NCBI GenBank assembly: GCA_963693365.1
Contig: CAVNZM010000011.1
Coordinates: 4,224,639-4,288,638 of the forward strand
Direction: 5' to 3'
Length of the DNA stretch: 64,000 bases
From: Amoebidium appalachense
Taxonomy: Eukaryota; Protista; Ichthyosporea
Below, piece by piece: positions 3,309-54,245 of the stretch; the first letter of the stretch is position 1, and the number at the start of each line of letters is the position of its first letter. The notes below the pieces were generated by a model. It had not been told where the DNA came from, did no database searches, and was given only the letters and a program-made list of their open reading frames with translations. The translations under genes were made by a program, and so were the position numbers.

Positions 3309-21663
<18,355 letters not shown>

Positions 21664-36797: not shown

Positions 36798-37499
36798 TTT
36801 TCAGACTCAAACCTGCATGCCAAAAGAGTATGTTAGTAGCTGTTACAAAAATATTCCCCAAATGAAAAAACAAAAAAGGGGCTTACTGGTTAACAAGTCC
36901 TCGTGTTCCACACATGTGCATGTCAAGCAGGGGGAAAAAAATATTACTATACTGTAACAGTGCTAGTGTGGATAAGTTACGTTTGTTGTCGATAGCCAGA
37001 GCAGGCAGGCACAAGTTGGGAGTGACTAAAATGCGCCTCATAGTTATTGGGTCATTGTTGGAGGGTTAGAAAAGAGAGAGCTTGCAATTGCAGTCCATTT
37101 CCACACCTTGTCAAACAGAAAGAAAATCATTACAGTGTGGATATGGTTTACTCTTAAGCTTTCTGTCCATAGTCACGTGCACAGGCGACAGCACTTAACA
37201 GGCACATGTTGTTATGAGCACGACTTGTTGCGGCCATAATACAATATTTTGCTATTTAGAGGTTTTCTTTAGGGAGGAAAAGAAGAAACGACAAAACAAA
37301 AGGTAAAATCACCTTCTCACCCGTTTCCGTGGCACCAAAGGATGAGCTTTGTGGTGCTGTGTGGCGAATTTGTAATAGGTGTGGGGAGGAATGTGCTGCG
37401 GAATACTGTAGCTGAGACCCCCTGTATCTGTAAGACAATGGGGTTTATTAGCTCTTGGATGGTTCATATTTCGGAAATTTGGACAATGATACATTTGAA

Positions 37500-38732
37500 A
37501 ATTCAAGTTGTGTCCTCCTATGACTATTTAGGTATTCCTTTCACCTCTAAGGGTATTTGCTTTGAGCGCCTTTTTTTTTTTGACTTCGCGCATTTCCCGA
37601 GCGCGTGGTCGTTTACACATCTATCAAGGCATTTTCGCAAGTATTTCTGATGCCCATGCACACTACACTTTGAACAATCAACCTATCCCAGTTGTGTCCT
37701 CCTATGACTATTTAGGTATTCCTTTCACCTCTAAGAGTATTTGCTTTGAGCGCCTTTTGACTTCGCGCATGAAATTTCCCGTGCGTGTGGTCGTTTACAT
37801 CTATGTATCAAAGCATTTTCGCAAGCATTTCTAATGTCCATCCTGCTAATCTGCTCACTCTTAAGGTAAAGTTTTTCTTCGTCCATGTTTCGAAAATGGC
37901 CTCCCGTTACTCTTGTGTGCCCCTCCACGGCAACAGCGCGCGGCGCTTCGGAAATTCGATTCCTTTCAGCGTGAATTCATCCAGTTCATCACTCGGACCT
38001 CGCGTAGGCATCCTCTGGCGCTCCTTTGCTGAGTGTTTTTGGTCTCCCTCCGGCGAGTCAGCGCATGAATGAGTTAGGCCTTCGCTTTTGTTTTCTTTTG
38101 GTTAGGCTTCATTCTTAATATCATCCTTAAATTTGTTGCAATTCTTTCCTTCTTTAGACCCTACCCTGTTCCCATTTCTAATGTTCGTGCGAAATGTCCT
38201 CTACCCAATCTATCTCCCATTCAGAGATAATCCTTTAAATATTTGTCTCCTTTATTTTTCTCTTCCCCTATAGGCTATTTATCAGCAGTATGTTACTTGG
38301 TTTCATACTCAATATCCTTTGCTTTATCGTTGTGATAAAGAGTATTATGGTAGGACTCTTGAGCCTGTGCTTCTTTTTATATTAGAGACTCGTCTATCTT
38401 CTCTACAATCGTTATGTAAATTAGTTACTTATATTCATCCTTCCTCTCGTAAACCTACCACCCTTGCCGATTTTGCCATTCTAACCCCTTCGTGTGATAT
38501 TGCTTGGAAATGTTTATTTTGGCGTTGTAACCTTAGTTTCCATAAATGTTTGTGCCACTTTTGTGCAGAACCTTTTTCTCGCAAACATCTAGATATATGT
38601 ATTTATTTATCTCAGATTCTTCCGTTAGAGATTCGAAGACTCGCTTATTTAGATAATCCTGATGTTACTTCTATTGACTATCTGTTAAACCACCGTATGT
38701 TTAACGAGTTTTCTAGGGTGTATGATTATTGA
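37500..38732 (+). mobile_element. Degenerate, 5'-truncated LINE of the same clade (RT thumb plus C-terminal domain)
   Basis: PIPVVSSYDYLGIPF (RT end; compare PVPIVPEYKYLGVPV in the neighbouring ORF2) and YIHPSSR..LADFAI..WRCN..C..C..FSRKH..C..IDYLLN, colinear with the ORF2 C-terminus. Frameshifts and stops lie in between. A ~155-bp internal duplication is present (37504-37657 vs 37689-37841). Confidence 0.85.
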
Positions 38733-38991
38733 GTCGTTATCTCCTCCCTATCCGTGAGTAGGGGTTTTTGTATTTTCTTCTCTGAGATATCTGTGAGGGG
38801 TTTACGCTGTTTACTCGAGGCAAAGAGAACCAGTCTCAGGTATGGGGGGGGGGGTTTTGCTCGGAATATCCCCTCAGCGGTATATCATGATCACGTACAT
38901 AGATGTCGGGTGGTGACTATATATCAGGGTTTACTTTCTCTACGAGACACCATAAAGACTACAAGGAGAAATCAATTAGTTGGGGTTCCCC

Positions 38992-39032
<41 letters not shown>

Positions 39033-39064
39033 GGGCTCCCCTCGGGACACTCGGTATCAGCTGG

Positions 39065-39127
<63 letters not shown>

Positions 39128-39131
39128 TGCG

Positions 39132-42100
39132 CTATAATTTTGTAGTGATGTGTTTCTCAAGCCAATCAATACATCTAATAAACAGGTCGTAGTTACGCGT
39201 GTTTAGTATAAAATCAAGGATGTTGTAATTTACAGGTAGGCTATCTTTCTGGGTGTCTGTTGTGAATGTGACGTGTGTGTGTTGCGGTATTATGTGGTCT
39301 ATCAAACTACATTTGGCGATACATGACCGGTTAAACTGGTGTGTGTGTGTGTTGTTTGGGCATGCAAATGATGCCACCTTATACTTATTAGATCTCCACT
39401 GTATAGCACGTGTACAGTAAAAGCGTGGTAATTGATCAATAATACCATCAGCTAGAGAAAGACCAGTTCTACAGGAAGGTAATATGTATTTAGGTGTTAT
39501 ACACTTGCGAGTGCCATATTTGGCAATATGGTTGAGGCGGTCAGTATATATAAAACGAGACATAAGGCTTAGTTTTTCAAGGTGTATGCTTTCATCGGGT
39601 CTAGTGTCGTGTGGTATCTTTTTCCATTTGTTATATTGCGTGATTATCTTGTGATTGTGTACATGTTTAATAAGTAAGTGGCAGTCCAAAGTCACACACA
39701 CACTATTGCGGGGTTTATTTGTATTTGTGCCCAGGGGAGAAGGGGAGAGAGAGGGGAGGAAAGAGGGGAGAGGTGAGGAGGGGACAGGTCGGATAGAGAA
39801 GAGAGGGTGGGAGGGCAAATACTTCTTTAAGCGGCTTATGTGCTTATTGAATTTCAGCGCGAGATAGGATACTCTAGCAGCTATTGGGACCAGACCATAT
39901 ATCGAGAGCGTTACAGGCCCAGGTTTACAACAGTTGTTAGATAGAAAGGAGGCAACTTCTGCTTCAAGGAAATTTGCCAAGGGTTTAAGCGCTCTAGTTC
40001 TCTCTTTCTTGATCCAAGCGGCGAGAAGGGGTAAACCATATTCACATGCCGGGAAGACAAAAGTGCGAATAAATGTAAGTCTAATAGAAGGATGGAGGGG
40101 TGTGTCTTTAAAAATATTAGCCGAGAAGAAAGCTAACCGCTTACGAGCCAACTCTACCCTCTTTTCGACCATATGGGGAAACATAACACCAACAGAATCA
40201 ACCGGAACACCAAGATATTTGTATTCTGGAACTATAGGTACAGGTTTAGATGGTAATGTAAATGTGTGTAAATTGTTAGCTATATCAGGTACAAGAACAC
40301 CACATTTGTCTATGTTAAGGATCATAAGGTTTGCCTTGCACCACTCTGACACTACATCGAACAATCTTTGCAGGCGTCTAGGGGTACGGGCAAGGAGGGA
40401 CAGATCATCAGCATAGAGAAGTGCAGGCGGAAAGTTATTAATAGGGTCATCGTTTTCGGCGTAAATCTTGACAGCCAAATCATCTATAAATAGGTTAAAC
40501 AAAAAGGGGCTAAGCAATGAACCCTGCAAGAGACCTCTAGTACGAGCAAAACCATATGAAAGATGCCCATTAACCACAGCTCTACCATAGGTTTGAGACA
40601 AGAGTGCTTCTAACAGAACACCAATGCAGTGTGGTACACCCCGTGCAGCAAGCTTTTCCCATAGGAGACCAGGGGAGACAGAATCGTAAGCAGTTTTCCA
40701 ATCAATAAAGCCAACATATTGTGCACCAACTTGCATAGAATCGTGCAGTGCCATTATTTGAACATAACATGAATTGTTTTTACGAAAAGCGGATTGGCAT
40801 GGGTGTATGTGAAGAATAGATTGAAACCTAGGGTGATGTGCAAATAACCTAAGTAAGCAAGCTTCAAAGAATCTACGAACAACCTGGGTTAGTGTAATGG
40901 GGCGAAAGGATGATATGGGGCCCTCAGAGTCCTTCTTAACTATGGGGATCACTAAGGTATCTAACCAAGATGACGGGACATGTCCACATTTAACACACCA
41001 AGAAAAGAGAGAGCTTAACATGATAGTAAGATCAGGTTTAATAGCACGATCACTTTCCTTTTGTGGGTAGGAGGGAACAAGGATTTTAAGAAACCCAGCA
41101 GGGAGTCCATCAGGTCCACAAGACTTACTAGAGCTATAACTAGATATCACAGACCATATGGCATCGGGACTGAAAAAGGGGAGGATCGATTCTATGGGGA
41201 TAGATGGGTCTACAGGCCACACAATAGGTTTCTGAGCGGGGGTCCTATCTTTAAACAGTTCCGAGAAATACTTATCAGAGTCTATGAGGGGGTCTCCAGT
41301 GGTATCACCAATAATACGAGCAGGGGGGCCAAATCGATTCATACTAGCAAGCCGGCGCAAGCTTTCCTTTTGAGACAGGGGTTCACCTAGTCTAGCGGGA
41401 GTGGTGTTTGGTAACAAGAGAGCATCGGGGTATTCCTTCCTACCACCGCCAGCATAATCACCGAGATCTATCAAATCATCAACAATAAAGTTAGTGCATG
41501 TATCTAGTACGAGATGTGAATCTGGCCTGGCTTGTGCAGATTCTAATAGGCGCATATATATAGGGTGTTTCGTAGCATAGCATACACATACATCAACTCT
41601 ACCCCACTGTGACTTAAGCTGGGATAGACGGAGGCGAAAGGTGGGAGGGGGAGGGGGGAGCAGATCAAGGGAGATCTTAGGTAGGAAAAGGATAGGAGAG
41701 TGGTCAGATGACCTAGAGAGGTTAGGAGGGAGAGAGAGTTTTGACATGGTTGATGGCCAAAAGGCCACTCCCCAGTCGGTGTTGTGGGCATGGGATATTT
41801 GAGGGAACCGCAAAGTGTGACTTTGGACATACCTTGCTAAAGGGATAGCACGCTCCGGGGGCTTAGATGGGTACCCGACACTCACTTGCAGTGTGTCTGT
41901 GTGGTGGAGTCGCGTGTTAAAATCACCTAAAATAACAGTGGACATTGGTAACTGTGACAACTCGTGAGTCAATTCGACAACCGACATAGATGGTGGGTAA
42001 TATACAAAAGTAAAAACATTAGAAAGAAACTCTATAGAAACCGAGAATTCCGTTTTTGCTACCGGTTTGCACTTCACTCTCACGTGTGGTGCGGCAAGTA

Positions 42101-42326
42101 CAATAATGCCTCGGTTTTTCGCGTAACCGGGGTGTGTGGATGTGTCGACCAATGTAGAGTTGAATTTGTGGTGGTTTTTAAACTGTGTTTCGCAAATCAC
42201 TGTAAACGTGTGGTTGTTTGTCTGTTGTTGTATGTAGCTGATTTTATCGTCGAGTGTCCCGGGGGGGAGGCCCTTTTGGGGGCCCAGTGTCCGAGCATTC
42301 CAGAAGAAGAAGGATAAATTAGGCAT
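39132..42326 (-). CDS. LINE ORF2: apurinic-like endonuclease + reverse transcriptase + C-terminal Cys/His region, 1064 aa
   Basis: APE motifs FWNAR, ICET, VYYPP, ILGDFNT, SSDH; RT motifs KSCGPDG, FRPITL, Q-SAFR, FIDWKTAYDSV, GLLQGSLLSPFLFNLFIDDL, LLYADDL, YKYLGV; C-terminal AIQWRSN..C..FNRSC..C..LDFILN. Confidence 0.97.
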   Translation of the reverse strand: MPNLSFFFWNARTLGPQKGLPPGTLDDKISYIQQQTNNHTFTVICETQFKNHHKFNSTLVDTSTHPGYAKNRGIIVLAAPHVRVKCKPVAKTEFSVSIEFLSNVFTFVYYPPSMSVVELTHELSQLPMSTVILGDFNTRLHHTDTLQVSVGYPSKPPERAIPLARYVQSHTLRFPQISHAHNTDWGVAFWPSTMSKLSLPPNLSRSSDHSPILFLPKISLDLLPPPPPTFRLRLSQLKSQWGRVDVCVCYATKHPIYMRLLESAQARPDSHLVLDTCTNFIVDDLIDLGDYAGGGRKEYPDALLLPNTTPARLGEPLSQKESLRRLASMNRFGPPARIIGDTTGDPLIDSDKYFSELFKDRTPAQKPIVWPVDPSIPIESILPFFSPDAIWSVISSYSSSKSCGPDGLPAGFLKILVPSYPQKESDRAIKPDLTIMLSSLFSWCVKCGHVPSSWLDTLVIPIVKKDSEGPISSFRPITLTQVVRRFFEACLLRLFAHHPRFQSILHIHPCQSAFRKNNSCYVQIMALHDSMQVGAQYVGFIDWKTAYDSVSPGLLWEKLAARGVPHCIGVLLEALLSQTYGRAVVNGHLSYGFARTRGLLQGSLLSPFLFNLFIDDLAVKIYAENDDPINNFPPALLYADDLSLLARTPRRLQRLFDVVSEWCKANLMILNIDKCGVLVPDIANNLHTFTLPSKPVPIVPEYKYLGVPVDSVGVMFPHMVEKRVELARKRLAFFSANIFKDTPLHPSIRLTFIRTFVFPACEYGLPLLAAWIKKERTRALKPLANFLEAEVASFLSNNCCKPGPVTLSIYGLVPIAARVSYLALKFNKHISRLKKYLPSHPLFSIRPVPSSPLPSFLPSLSPSPLGTNTNKPRNSVCVTLDCHLLIKHVHNHKIITQYNKWKKIPHDTRPDESIHLEKLSLMSRFIYTDRLNHIAKYGTRKCITPKYILPSCRTGLSLADGIIDQLPRFYCTRAIQWRSNKYKVASFACPNNTHTHQFNRSCIAKCSLIDHIIPQHTHVTFTTDTQKDSLPVNYNILDFILNTRNYDLFIRCIDWLEKHITTKL

Positions 42327-42780
42327 CGGTTTGGTCCGACACCTGTGGGGTTGGTTCCCACTTGTCGCTTACGGGGTCGTATGCACGACCTTCCGCCAGC
42401 GCGAACAGTTCGCAGAAGAGCTCGATTTCCATCTCGCATCGGCGTTTGCGCTCGAGCAGTTTCTCACCAGAAAACATTGGTTCCTTCGTGTCCGTGTCTA
42501 TCACGCTCGTAGCATCGTTTTCCAACTTTGCGAGGAACTCTTTTGCCTTGCTGATGCGTACACGACAACGTGTGGCGCACGCATTCTTAGCAGACACTTT
42601 ACGTTCTTTGTCTGCTTTCTGAATGTTTTCCGGCGCGCATGGGTCGTAGCTTGGGAGGTGGGTGAAGAAGCTTCCACACCCCTTTGTCGCGTCACGGATG
42701 AACGCACGGTTATAGTCGCCCCGTACTGCTACTTCCAGCACATCGTATCCAATGAAGGACAGACAAAGGATGCGAGAGCA
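42319..42780 (-). CDS. LINE ORF1, C-terminal part (5'-truncated)
   Basis: Open frame CSRILCLSFIGYDVLEVAVRGDYNRAF..YDP..., resembling from memory ORF1 of fungal APE-LINEs. Its stop overlaps the ORF2 start (GATGCCTAA). There is no in-frame ATG upstream before a stop at ~42835. Confidence 0.6.
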   Translation of the reverse strand, partial: CSRILCLSFIGYDVLEVAVRGDYNRAFIRDATKGCGSFFTHLPSYDPCAPENIQKADKERKVSAKNACATRCRVRISKAKEFLAKLENDATSVIDTDTKEPMFSGEKLLERKRRCEMEIELFCELFALAEGRAYDPVSDKWEPTPQVSDQTDA

Positions 42781-42825
42781 CCGGAAATATCTGTGATATC
42801 TCCGGCTTGCAATTGCTTCTCTTTC

Positions 42826-43009
42826 ATGAGCATATCAATAAAGCCATTATATATAAAAAAAATTCAAGTCTGGGATAACTCTTCTTCGTTTCCTTCGAAC
42901 ATATGAGCACATCAATAAAGTCATTATTAAAAAAAAAGTTCGATGGCTTCTATTTTGCTGAGCATATCAATAAAGTCATTATAGATAAAAAAAAATTCAA
43001 GGCTGGGGG
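42826..43009. repeat. Three imperfect AT-rich tandem units (TGAGCA(T/C)ATCAATAAAG(C/T)CATTAT..A-run..TTC)
   Basis: Units start at ~42826, ~42903 and ~42958, next to the LINE 5' junction. Confidence 0.85.
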
Positions 43010-52681: not shown

Positions 52682-54245
52682 ACTACGCTGAGAAAAACAT
52701 AGCATTGCATCTTACATGTAGGTTTATACGGTCTTACATGAACACACGGGGTTTGCACTGTTCACTCGAGGCACAGATACGAGTCTCGAGTATGATGGGT
52801 GGCTTTCTCAGTAAAATGCCGCAAAAAGGATGCCCTGAGGCTCGATTCCGATTCCGAACGATCGTCGACTGAAAGTAAGGTTGTGGTATCGATCCGATGT
52901 GCCACATCGGAATTTGCGCAAACATCGAAAATATGGGGTTGAGATCTCGATCACCTGGTTAGGATCGAACTCACGACCTTAGGATTATGAGACCTACGCG
53001 CTACCTACTACGTTACCAGGACGATTCAGCATTTCCGATATGTACATATTTGCGCCATGTGCATTTGCGTAGAGGCCAAGGGTACCAAAACAGGGACCAA
53101 ACAGTCTTATGCACCACCTTGCGCAACAACAACCAGGCAGTATCGAAACATGGCACGTAAACGGCACAAGCCCGGGGAAAAAAAAGAAAAGAGAAAAGAG
53201 AGAAAAACTACAAGACAATACAAAACGCTGAGTCGACGAAAACCTGCTAAAAAATCCCCATAGTTCCATTGTCTCTATCACCACACACACTCAGCCATTC
53301 ATCATCTAATTAAGTGCCTTCCAGCCGCCCCTCCCCCTCCTCCCCCCCCCCCCCCCTCCCCCCTCCCCCCTCTTCTTCCCTTCTCTTCCAGAAGCCCCGC
53401 CAGACCTGGCCTTCTTGCCCCATTTCTGCCACGAATATATCTCTATTCCTTCAGTTCCAGAAATCAAATGAGTGGGTGGTGGAGTGTGTGTGTGTGTGTG
53501 TGTCTCTGTGGGGAAGTGCGTGGAGAGGGAGGGGGTTCGGGTGGTGACATGCATCCTGAGCACTTGAGCTCGAATGCATGCTTCTCTTCCATAGGAAGGA
53601 GGGGTCATGGGGGGCTTTATTGTTGTTGTTGTGGTGGTGGTGGTGGTGGTGGGGAGAGGGGGGGGGGGAGGGGGGGGGATAAAAATAATAAATGCGGCCC
53701 AAAGCATGAAGTACCGATCCACAGTGCAGATTATGCAAAAAGGAGCACAGGAGTGTGCATCATATGTAGAGCCCATCCTCCGCGGGGAACGGGGAGGGCA
53801 CCCGGGGGGGGGGGGGGGGGGGGGGGGGGGATGACCATAGCAGTGGGGTGTGTGGGGGGGGGAAGGTGGGGGAGGATGACCATAGCAGTGGGGTGTGTGG
53901 GGGGGGAGGGGGGGGGGGGGGGGGGCCTTACGGCCTGGCGGGAGGAATCCAGGGCGCTGAAAGATTGGTGGGCGATTGCGGTTGAAGGGGATGGGCAGGT
54001 TGAGGCCAGGCCCACGAGGCCCATGCAGAAGACCGGGGGGTCTGTGGAAATTACCGTCAGAAAAAAGAGAGGGGATACCGTGTCTGGGGGGGGGGGGGGG
54101 TCTATGGAACTTAGAGTGAAACAACCGAAAAAGGAATGCTGTTGATGGAAAGCAGAAGACATAACTTGACCCATGTATTGCTCAAGCGCAAATGAAAAGG
54201 AGACGGAGGTCCCTCGGGACCGGGGGCGCCCCGGGGGGGGGGAGG

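What the first reader, a model, noticed from the sequence alone, without database searches (positions are those of the whole stretch)
39029..42276. LINE 3' end is complementary to the start of its own ORF2: ~3.2-kb panhandle next to a stop/start overlap
Seen: the last 34 nt before the poly(A) on the element strand (39062-39029: AGCTGAT-AC-CGAGTGTCCCG-A-GGGGAG-C-CCCTTT) can pair with 42276-42236 (AAAGGG-C-CTCCCC-CC-CGGGACACTCG-ACGATAAA-ATCAGCT). That gives four helices of 7+11+6+6 bp, starting ~50 nt downstream of the ORF2 ATG. The ATG overlaps the ORF1 stop (GATGCCTAA, ORF2 in the +1 frame). The 5' arm overlaps a competing local hairpin GGGCCC-CCAAAA-GGGCCT and encodes an insert-like peptide (GPQKGLPPGTLDD) right after the APE WNAR motif. 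Established: termination-reinitiation of ORF2 that depends on downstream RNA structure is known for SART1, and long-range 3'-to-5' pairings control recoding in plant RNA viruses. Inference: a switch allowing ORF2 translation only from full-length RNA, or delivering the 3' end to nascent RT (cis-preference).
Basis: partly seen in the sequence, partly recalled or inferred. Interest (0 to 1): 0.8.

Follow-up and report, generated by a model that had tools for sequence, protein, structure and literature searches.

The report
LINE tail pairs with own ORF2
In a young retrotransposon family of the protist Amoebidium, the last 34 bases before the poly(A) tail are complementary to the start of the element's own reverse-transcriptase gene 3.2 kb away, which likely closes the RNA into a loop that would give the enzyme a grip found only on full-length copies, though this function is untested.

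Summary
The complementarity is real: 30 Watson-Crick pairs ending at the first A of the poly(A), 0 of 5,000 shuffles as good, and present in the predicted fold of the whole element. It is not a one-off. The element is a young APE-RT LINE (99% identical to an Amoebidium parasiticum transcript), and both arms are unchanged in the runs that cover them (5' arm 4 of 4, 3' arm 3 of 4). It is not clade-wide: 0 of 21 distant relatives show it, while 18 of 24 have the same kind of ORF1-stop/ORF2-start overlap, so ORF2 translation in this clade does not need it. Those relatives usually end in telomere-like repeats (13 of 19); this family instead has (CA)28, the arm and poly(A), and the 5' arm lies in a lineage-specific 10-residue endonuclease insert. 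Best reading (0.4): a long-range stem abutting poly(A) that ORF2p grips to start reverse transcription, like the stem-plus-poly(A) template of human L1 ORF2p, built only by RNAs that contain ORF2. Main rival (0.35): a functionless inverted copy fixed in the family founder; the absence of G·U pairs fits it. Covariation could not be tested.

The parts
39029..39062 (-). 3' arm: last 34 nt before poly(A); 30 of 34 nt pair with the 5' arm; nearly all the non-repeat sequence of the 3' UTR
   Evidence: covered without substitutions in runs X1, X3, X19
42236..42276 (-). 5' arm, ORF2 nt 51-91 (codons 17-31); helices 1-3 lie in the lineage-specific insert, helix 4 in core codons I29-S30-Y31; the conserved K28 codon is in the 8-nt unpaired loop
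39132..42326 (-). ORF2, intact, 1064 aa: APE endonuclease, reverse transcriptase, C-terminal Cys/His region
   Evidence: (RVT_1 E 6e-28)
42249..42278 (-). about 10-codon insert (Q17-D26; edges approximate) in the loop after the first endonuclease motif, aligned between L1 EN Asn19 and Lys23
42319..42786 (-). 3' 155 codons of ORF1 (full length 388 aa in P0034); its stop overlaps the ORF2 ATG; 5' truncation point 42786
42321..42344 (-). predicted 9-bp hairpin enclosing the ORF2 AUG
   Evidence: z -4.0
42268..42285 (-). local hairpin competing with helices 1-2 of the long-range duplex
   Evidence: z -1.9 for 42300-42236
39067..39122 (-). (CA)28 spacer between ORF2 stop and 3' arm; no AATAAA/ATTAAA in the last 370 nt
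38993..39028 (-). poly(A), 36 nt, directly after the last paired base
38797..38992 (-). 196-nt extra piece inside the target-site duplication, resembling the body of a tRNA-headed SINE-like element at 52750-53010 (3' transduction, template jump or nested insertion)
38787..38796 (+). target-site duplication, one copy (10 bp)
42787..42796 (+). target-site duplication, other copy (10 bp)
37273..38732 (+). older, broken LINE of the same clade; the insertion sits antisense in its 3' UTR, which resumes at 42797 and ends in AATAAA-poly(A) repeats near 42830-43000

Best explanation
The element's last 34 bases are complementary to ORF2 nt 51-91, and the RNA likely closes into a 3.2-kb loop whose stem, ending right at the poly(A), would serve as the handle that ORF2p grips to start reverse transcription. 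Shown: the complementarity, its family-wide presence, its exact end at poly(A), its absence from distant relatives, and the remodelled 3' end of this lineage. Predicted: that the duplex forms. Inferred: that ORF2p binds it as human L1 ORF2p binds a stem next to poly(A); that the rare ribosome translating ORF2 opens it only briefly; and that, because one strand lies inside ORF2, only RNAs that carry the ORF2 start build the handle, which favours full-length coding templates over truncated transcripts and parasites. Probable origin (inferred): an inverted copy of the ORF2 stretch captured at the 3' end and then kept.
For: Significance and predicted fold. Both arms unchanged in the runs that cover them. 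The tail alone has no notable structure (z -0.17), so a strong stem beside the poly(A) exists only through the long-range partner. Human L1 ORF2p anchors on a stem adjacent to poly(A); unpairing it lowers TPRT modestly and makes start sites heterogeneous (PMC10830416, passages); R2 also needs a 3'-terminal stem-loop plus single-stranded tail (PMC11194090, passages). The partner is not a random stretch: it lies in a lineage-specific insert and in the codon window with the highest GC3 of ORF2 (11 of 14 against 41% overall; 4 of 1,051 windows as high). The lineage has replaced the AATAAA/telomere-repeat end common in the clade (13 of 19 relatives) with this tail.
Against: No covariation: 0 of 21 distant relatives have any such pairing and close copies show no informative variation. 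No G·U among 30 pairs (P about 0.05 at the 9.7% G·U of the element's own predicted fold, but 0.19-0.44 for a copy with 2-4 random substitutions), which favours recent copying. A captured inverted copy would also cover the whole tail. The L1 analogy crosses a large distance (16-17% structural identity). Minimum-energy folds of 3.8-kb RNAs are unreliable, and in Ty1 long-distance pairings differ between cell compartments (PMC9503155, passages).
Confidence: 0.4

Rival explanations
1. Functionless relic: a 41-nt piece of ORF2 was copied in inverted form between the (CA)n and the poly(A) of the family's founder (template switch or repair insertion), then partly decayed and was amplified with the family. 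The peptide insert would matter only to the protein, for instance by altering endonuclease-DNA contacts when telomere targeting was lost.
For: All pairs Watson-Crick; sharp ends; absent from 21 of 21 distant relatives; the match runs across insert and conserved core codons alike; P0002 has an insert of different sequence at the same place; the loop aligns with L1 EN residues Asn16/Asn19/Lys23 that contact DNA (PMC8565326, passage).
Against: The source happens to be the ORF2 start, within an insert and the highest-GC3 window; no microhomology seen at either edge (by eye); two gaps but only one or two substitutions in 30 paired positions; a 30-bp duplex over ORF2 codons is kept in an apparently active family.
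Confidence: 0.35
2. Translation switch: the duplex, in competition with the local hairpin and together with the AUG-enclosing hairpin, sets ORF2 termination-reinitiation so that ORF2 is made only from full-length RNA.
For: Stop/start overlap; AUG hairpin z -4.0; a mutually exclusive local hairpin; downstream RNA structure is needed for SART1 reinitiation (PMC10275272 and PMC3894237, passages).
Against: 18 of 24 relatives have the overlap without the duplex; none of 19 relatives has a significant structure at +20 to +100 (z above -1.6); the duplex starts 50 nt past the AUG, beyond a terminating ribosome's reach (own knowledge); the junction is not UAAUG.
Confidence: 0.15
3. 3'-end formation or protection: the duplex marks where the transcript is cut and polyadenylated, or shields the 3' end from exonucleases, replacing the lost AATAAA signal; or it forms in the single-stranded cDNA, where Watson-Crick-only pairing is equally possible.
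For: No AATAAA near the end, whereas many relatives have one; stem abuts poly(A); the cDNA duplex is also stable (-33.9 kcal/mol, DNA parameters).
Against: No break or truncation pile-up seen at the 5' arm: single contigs cross it in X1, X12 and X19 (tables are cut). The poly(A) can be genome-encoded, needing no signal.
Confidence: 0.09
4. Chance complementarity of two GC-rich stretches.
For: Both arms are GC-rich with C/G runs.
Against: 0 of 5,000, 0 of 2,000 and 0 of 300 dinucleotide-preserving shuffles.
Confidence: 0.01

Closest known systems
Human L1 ORF2p template anchoring (stem plus poly(A), as in Alu RNA; PMC10830416)
   Same: APE-RT ORF2p; an RNA duplex directly 5' of a single-stranded poly(A).
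   Different: There the stem is a local stem-loop; here its second strand would be coding sequence 3.2 kb upstream. Binding is not shown here.
Stringent LINEs and R2: 3'-UTR stem-loops recognised by their own RT (PMC11194090 passages; PMC5135761 abstract start)
   Same: Short, family-constant 3'-terminal sequence before the tail.
   Different: This tail has no significant local fold (z -0.17). R2 also engages a 5'-ORF RNA together with the 3' UTR (PDB 8ibz title), but through the protein (recalled), not by a long duplex.
SART1 translational coupling (Kojima 2005, seen only through PMC10275272 and PMC3894237)
   Same: ORF1 stop overlapping the ORF2 start, with RNA structure downstream.
   Different: AUGCCUAA rather than UAAUG; the structure is long-range; different lineage; no functional test.
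Ty1 CYC5/CYC3 cyclisation (PMC9503155); end-to-end pairings of plus-strand RNA viruses (recalled)
   Same: Kilobase-range intramolecular pairing tied to copying of the genome.
   Different: Ty1 is an LTR element primed by tRNA; this is a target-primed LINE and the 3' strand is the terminus itself.
   Same: About 1000-aa ORF2, shared motifs, stop/start overlap; one supported clade in a quick tree (35 rows, SH-aLRT 97).
   Different: No telomere-like repeat or AATAAA at the 3' end; has the endonuclease insert and the duplex.

Membership tests
APE-type non-LTR retrotransposon (LINE) | ORF2 with N-terminal APE endonuclease and RT | tested here: met
   Pfam RVT_1; family profile matches L1 ORF2p and L1 EN chains; fold search top hits L1 ORF2p. 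Pfam did not call the APE domain on the single sequence.
APE-type non-LTR retrotransposon (LINE) | Upstream ORF1 | tested here: met
   388-aa P0034, 100% identical over the retained part; no Pfam family in the retained part
APE-type non-LTR retrotransposon (LINE) | Poly(A) tail, target-site duplication, 5' truncation, 3'-biased copy depth | tested here: met
   A36; 10-bp duplication; truncation at 42786 and depth falling 3' to 5' in X1, X3, X19, flat in X12 (depth is no copy number)
SART1-type translational coupling | UAAUG overlapping stop-start | tested here: not met
   junction is AUGCCUAA
SART1-type translational coupling | Downstream RNA structure required for ORF2 synthesis | not testable with these tools
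   structures predicted; needs a reporter
Stringent LINE with local 3' stem-loop | Stable local stem-loop in the 3' tail | tested here: not met
   -8.4 kcal/mol, z -0.17, 75 of 200 shuffles as good; no Rfam match at the tail
Conserved long-range RNA structure | Compensatory base changes across relatives | tested here: inconclusive
   close copies invariant; distant relatives lack the pairing; DNA of mid-distance relatives not found
Conserved long-range RNA structure | Duplex forms in the RNA | not testable with these tools
   prediction only
Telomere-associated members of the same clade | Telomere-like repeat within 260 nt after the ORF2 stop | tested here: not met
   window has (CA)28, arm, A36; 13 of 19 relatives have the repeat
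Ty1-type cyclisation | LTR element with tRNA-primed reverse transcription | tested here: not met
   APE-RT element with poly(A) and no LTR

The most novel reading that the evidence does not exclude
A LINE that builds its reverse-transcriptase handle out of its own coding sequence: a loop inserted into the endonuclease gene doubles as one strand of a 30-bp stem with the RNA's 3' terminus, so that only full-length, ORF2-bearing RNA is a good template, and ORF2 translation and reverse transcription are physically coupled through one switchable helix. This would be an RNA-structural route to cis-preference, arising as the lineage abandoned telomere targeting.
Probability: 0.35. Interest if true: 0.82.

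Novelty: new variant of a known kind. Interest (0 to 1): 0.55.

Why it matters
How LINE proteins pick their own full-length RNA (cis-preference) and how ORF2 translation hands over to reverse transcription are open questions. A single 30-bp helix joining the ORF2 start to the poly(A) junction in an intact, apparently active family makes both directly testable with synonymous disrupt-and-restore mutants, and would offer a design rule for template RNAs in retrotransposon-based gene insertion. If it is a relic, it is only a curiosity of one family's history.

Tried and rejected
No whole genome is held for this window, so copies could not be aligned. No second full copy in the window. Locus searches with ORF2 or small alignments found nothing in metagenome or viral contigs; a 99-row alignment was too diverse for that tool on two collections; the degenerate RT motif found 50 metagenome loci and none in prokaryote or viral contigs. 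A search for short N-terminal relatives found none. A 19-nt piece of the 3' arm: 0 viral matches, 1 unrelated bacterial match. Rfam: only one chance match, inside ORF2. Run X12 laid nothing on the 57-nt tail stretch; the tool warns this is no proof of absence. No listed run is on record as RNA; X19 is only guessed to be RNA, so expression rests on the named transcriptome proteins P0001/P0035/P0034. One- and two-base deletions in G/C runs in X3 (42261, 42274, 39032-39038) occur at homopolymers throughout that run and were not taken as variants. The constrained fold left both arms unpaired and was discarded; one search replaces it. The tree is the quick version, unrooted, RT region only. Earlier-findings look-ups returned nothing. 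Kojima 2005 is not held. An alternative weaker register of the 3' arm on 42300-42278 (-20.6 kcal/mol) was noted, not pursued.

Full report
Observation. They form four helices of 6, 6, 11 and 7 Watson-Crick pairs, -48.8 kcal/mol, the last pair being the base before the poly(A); scanning the 3' arm along both strands of the window gives no better partner except its own opposite strand. With dinucleotide-preserving shuffles, 0 of 5,000 shuffled arms and 0 of 2,000 shuffled element bodies reach the alignment score of 35 (mean 17), and 0 of 300 reach the duplex energy. The predicted fold of the whole 3,776-nt element contains the duplex, by about 17 kcal/mol over folding body and tail separately.

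The element. ORF2 (42326-39132, 1064 aa) is intact, with an RT domain and an APE domain recognised through the family profile and the predicted fold. It is 99% identical over 70% of its length to a protein from an Amoebidium parasiticum transcriptome (P0001), and P0035 from the same source matches its C-terminal third at 99.7%. The copy is 5'-truncated at 42786: in all 4 runs laid the sequence continues with the same other letters, one 4,512-nt contig running about 850 nt further, and the full ORF1 is 388 aa. A 10-bp target-site duplication (38787-38796, 42787-42796) encloses the LINE, a 36-nt poly(A) and a 196-nt SINE-like piece; the whole sits antisense in the 3' UTR of an older broken LINE of the same clade. 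The family is young: only two fixed differences from the runs over 3.6 kb, and summed depth falls from the 3' to the 5' end in three of four runs (depth is not copy number).

Family-wide, not one-off. No substitution is listed in the 5' arm in any of 4 runs. The 3' arm with its CA and A flanks is covered in 3 of 4 runs with no substitution at 1% or more; its depth in X1 (80) lies between that of the ORF2 3' end (118) and the 5' part (49), and X3 shows differing A-tail continuations. The 3' UTR consists of 8 nt, (CA)28, 4 nt, the arm and poly(A), with no AATAAA; the arm by itself has no notable fold (z -0.17).

Not clade-wide. A profile search found a large clade of ~1000-aa ORF2 proteins, mostly 22-28% identical. 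A degenerate RT motif fetched 50 metagenome loci, 21 with a complete ORF2 and stop. None of the 21 has significant complementarity between its 3' end and the ORF1/ORF2 junction (lowest count 10 of 200 shuffles; window 0 of 200) or anywhere upstream (lowest 5 of 60); some have only short 3' flanks (29-89 nt in three). By contrast, of 24 loci with the ORF2 start in view, 18 have an ORF1 stop 1-14 nt after a candidate ORF2 ATG, one has it 25 nt before, and five could not be scored (a few loci are close kin). So the overlap is ancestral and works without the duplex. Thirteen of 19 relatives with at least 60 nt of 3' flank have telomere-like repeats within 260 nt of the stop, against 1 of 261 control windows, often after AATAAA. 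The Amoebidium-type proteins (window, P0002, P0036) form a supported branch inside this group in a quick RT tree.

The 5' arm. Codons 17-26 are a 10-residue insert absent from the clade; P0002 (46% identical) has 7 other residues there. The insert is predicted as an ordered loop before helix 24-38 and aligns between L1 EN Asn19 and Lys23, residues that contact DNA (PMC8565326, passage). Twenty-three of the 30 pairs fall in the insert and 7 in core codons after the conserved Lys28, so the tail most simply derives from ORF2 as an inverted copy (inference). Codons 12-31 have the highest GC3 in ORF2. A 9-bp hairpin encloses the AUG (z -4.0) and a weaker local hairpin competes with the duplex (z -1.9); 3 of 19 relatives have a junction fold with z below -2 and none has one at +20 to +100.

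Mechanism. Human L1 ORF2p holds an RNA stem next to the poly(A) tract, and unpairing the stem lowers TPRT modestly and scatters its start sites (PMC10830416, passages); R2 needs a 3' stem-loop plus single-stranded tail for faithful positioning (PMC11194090, passages). The duplex here has that geometry, but needs a strand from inside ORF2. I therefore favour a template handle present only on ORF2-bearing RNA (0.4). Against it: no covariation; no G·U pairs, which a decayed copy gives more easily (P 0.19-0.44) than an average structure (P 0.05); and the unreliability of long-range predictions (PMC9503155, passages). The relic reading gets 0.35, the translation switch 0.15 (SART1 known only from passages of PMC10275272 and PMC3894237), 3'-end protection or cDNA pairing 0.09, chance 0.01.

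Novelty. Five full-text searches (listings and abstract starts only) showed no report of a LINE 3' terminus base-pairing with its ORF2 start, and a search for Amoebidium LINEs (passages of PMC11244446) showed no description of this family; subscription journals, Repbase and supplements were not seen. Long-range pairing is known in Ty1 and RNA viruses, and 3' stems in LINE and SINE templates, so this is a new variant of a known kind, real in sequence, unproven in function. Interest 0.55.

Noticed in passing
L006, L012, L015, L030, L033, L041, L042, L046, L049 (C-rich strand); L019, L024, L040, L044 (G-rich strand); also L027, L039: Relatives of this ORF2 from metagenomes are followed, a short way after the stop and often after AATAAA, by telomere-like repeats (13 of 19 scored against 1 of 261 control windows). 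The two orientations fall mostly on two branches of the tree, as with TRAS and SART. This looks like a large, unnamed clade of telomere-repeat-targeting APE LINEs in microbial eukaryotes; two literature searches and passages of PMC10088271 did not show it.
   Followed up: partly
window 38797-38992 and 52750-53010 (minus strand): A tRNA-headed SINE-like element near 52750-53010 (not called by ARAGORN) shares its 3' 56 nt at 79% with the 196-nt piece after the LINE's poly(A); both stop at the same short motif without poly(A). The LINE-poly(A)-SINE-body unit inside one target-site duplication may be a template-jump chimera or a 3' transduction.
   Followed up: partly
window 37273-38732 and 42797-43000 (+ strand): Older, frameshifted LINE of the same clade (37% to P0036) with an internal 184-nt-spaced duplication; its 3' UTR ends in three tandem AATAAA-poly(A) units and is a repeated sequence in the runs.
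   Followed up: partly
window 42344-42321 (minus strand): A 9-bp hairpin with two G·U pairs hides the ORF2 AUG and ends at the first base of the ORF1 stop (z -4.0); a candidate local control of reinitiation independent of the long-range duplex.
   Followed up: partly
window 42295-42251 (minus strand): Codons 12-14 and 23-25 are an imperfect direct repeat 33 nt apart, suggesting the endonuclease insert arose by tandem duplication; the upstream copy offers a weaker alternative register for the 3' arm (-20.6 kcal/mol).
   Followed up: partly
P0037 (NCBI EFX60362.1): A protein annotated as Daphnia pulex is 91% identical to P0002; since Amoebidium lives on Daphnia (recalled), it may be an epibiont contaminant and hints that P0002 is another Amoebidium family.
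   Followed up: no
P0040, P0051, P0055, P0068, P0076, P0079, P0094; L012, L015, L016, L033: Several relatives have Ser/Pro-rich inserts a little further into the endonuclease (after the first helix); in the four with DNA these show no pairing with the 3' end.
   Followed up: partly
window 17443-17524 (+): tRNA-Ser(GCT) gene called by ARAGORN.
   Followed up: no
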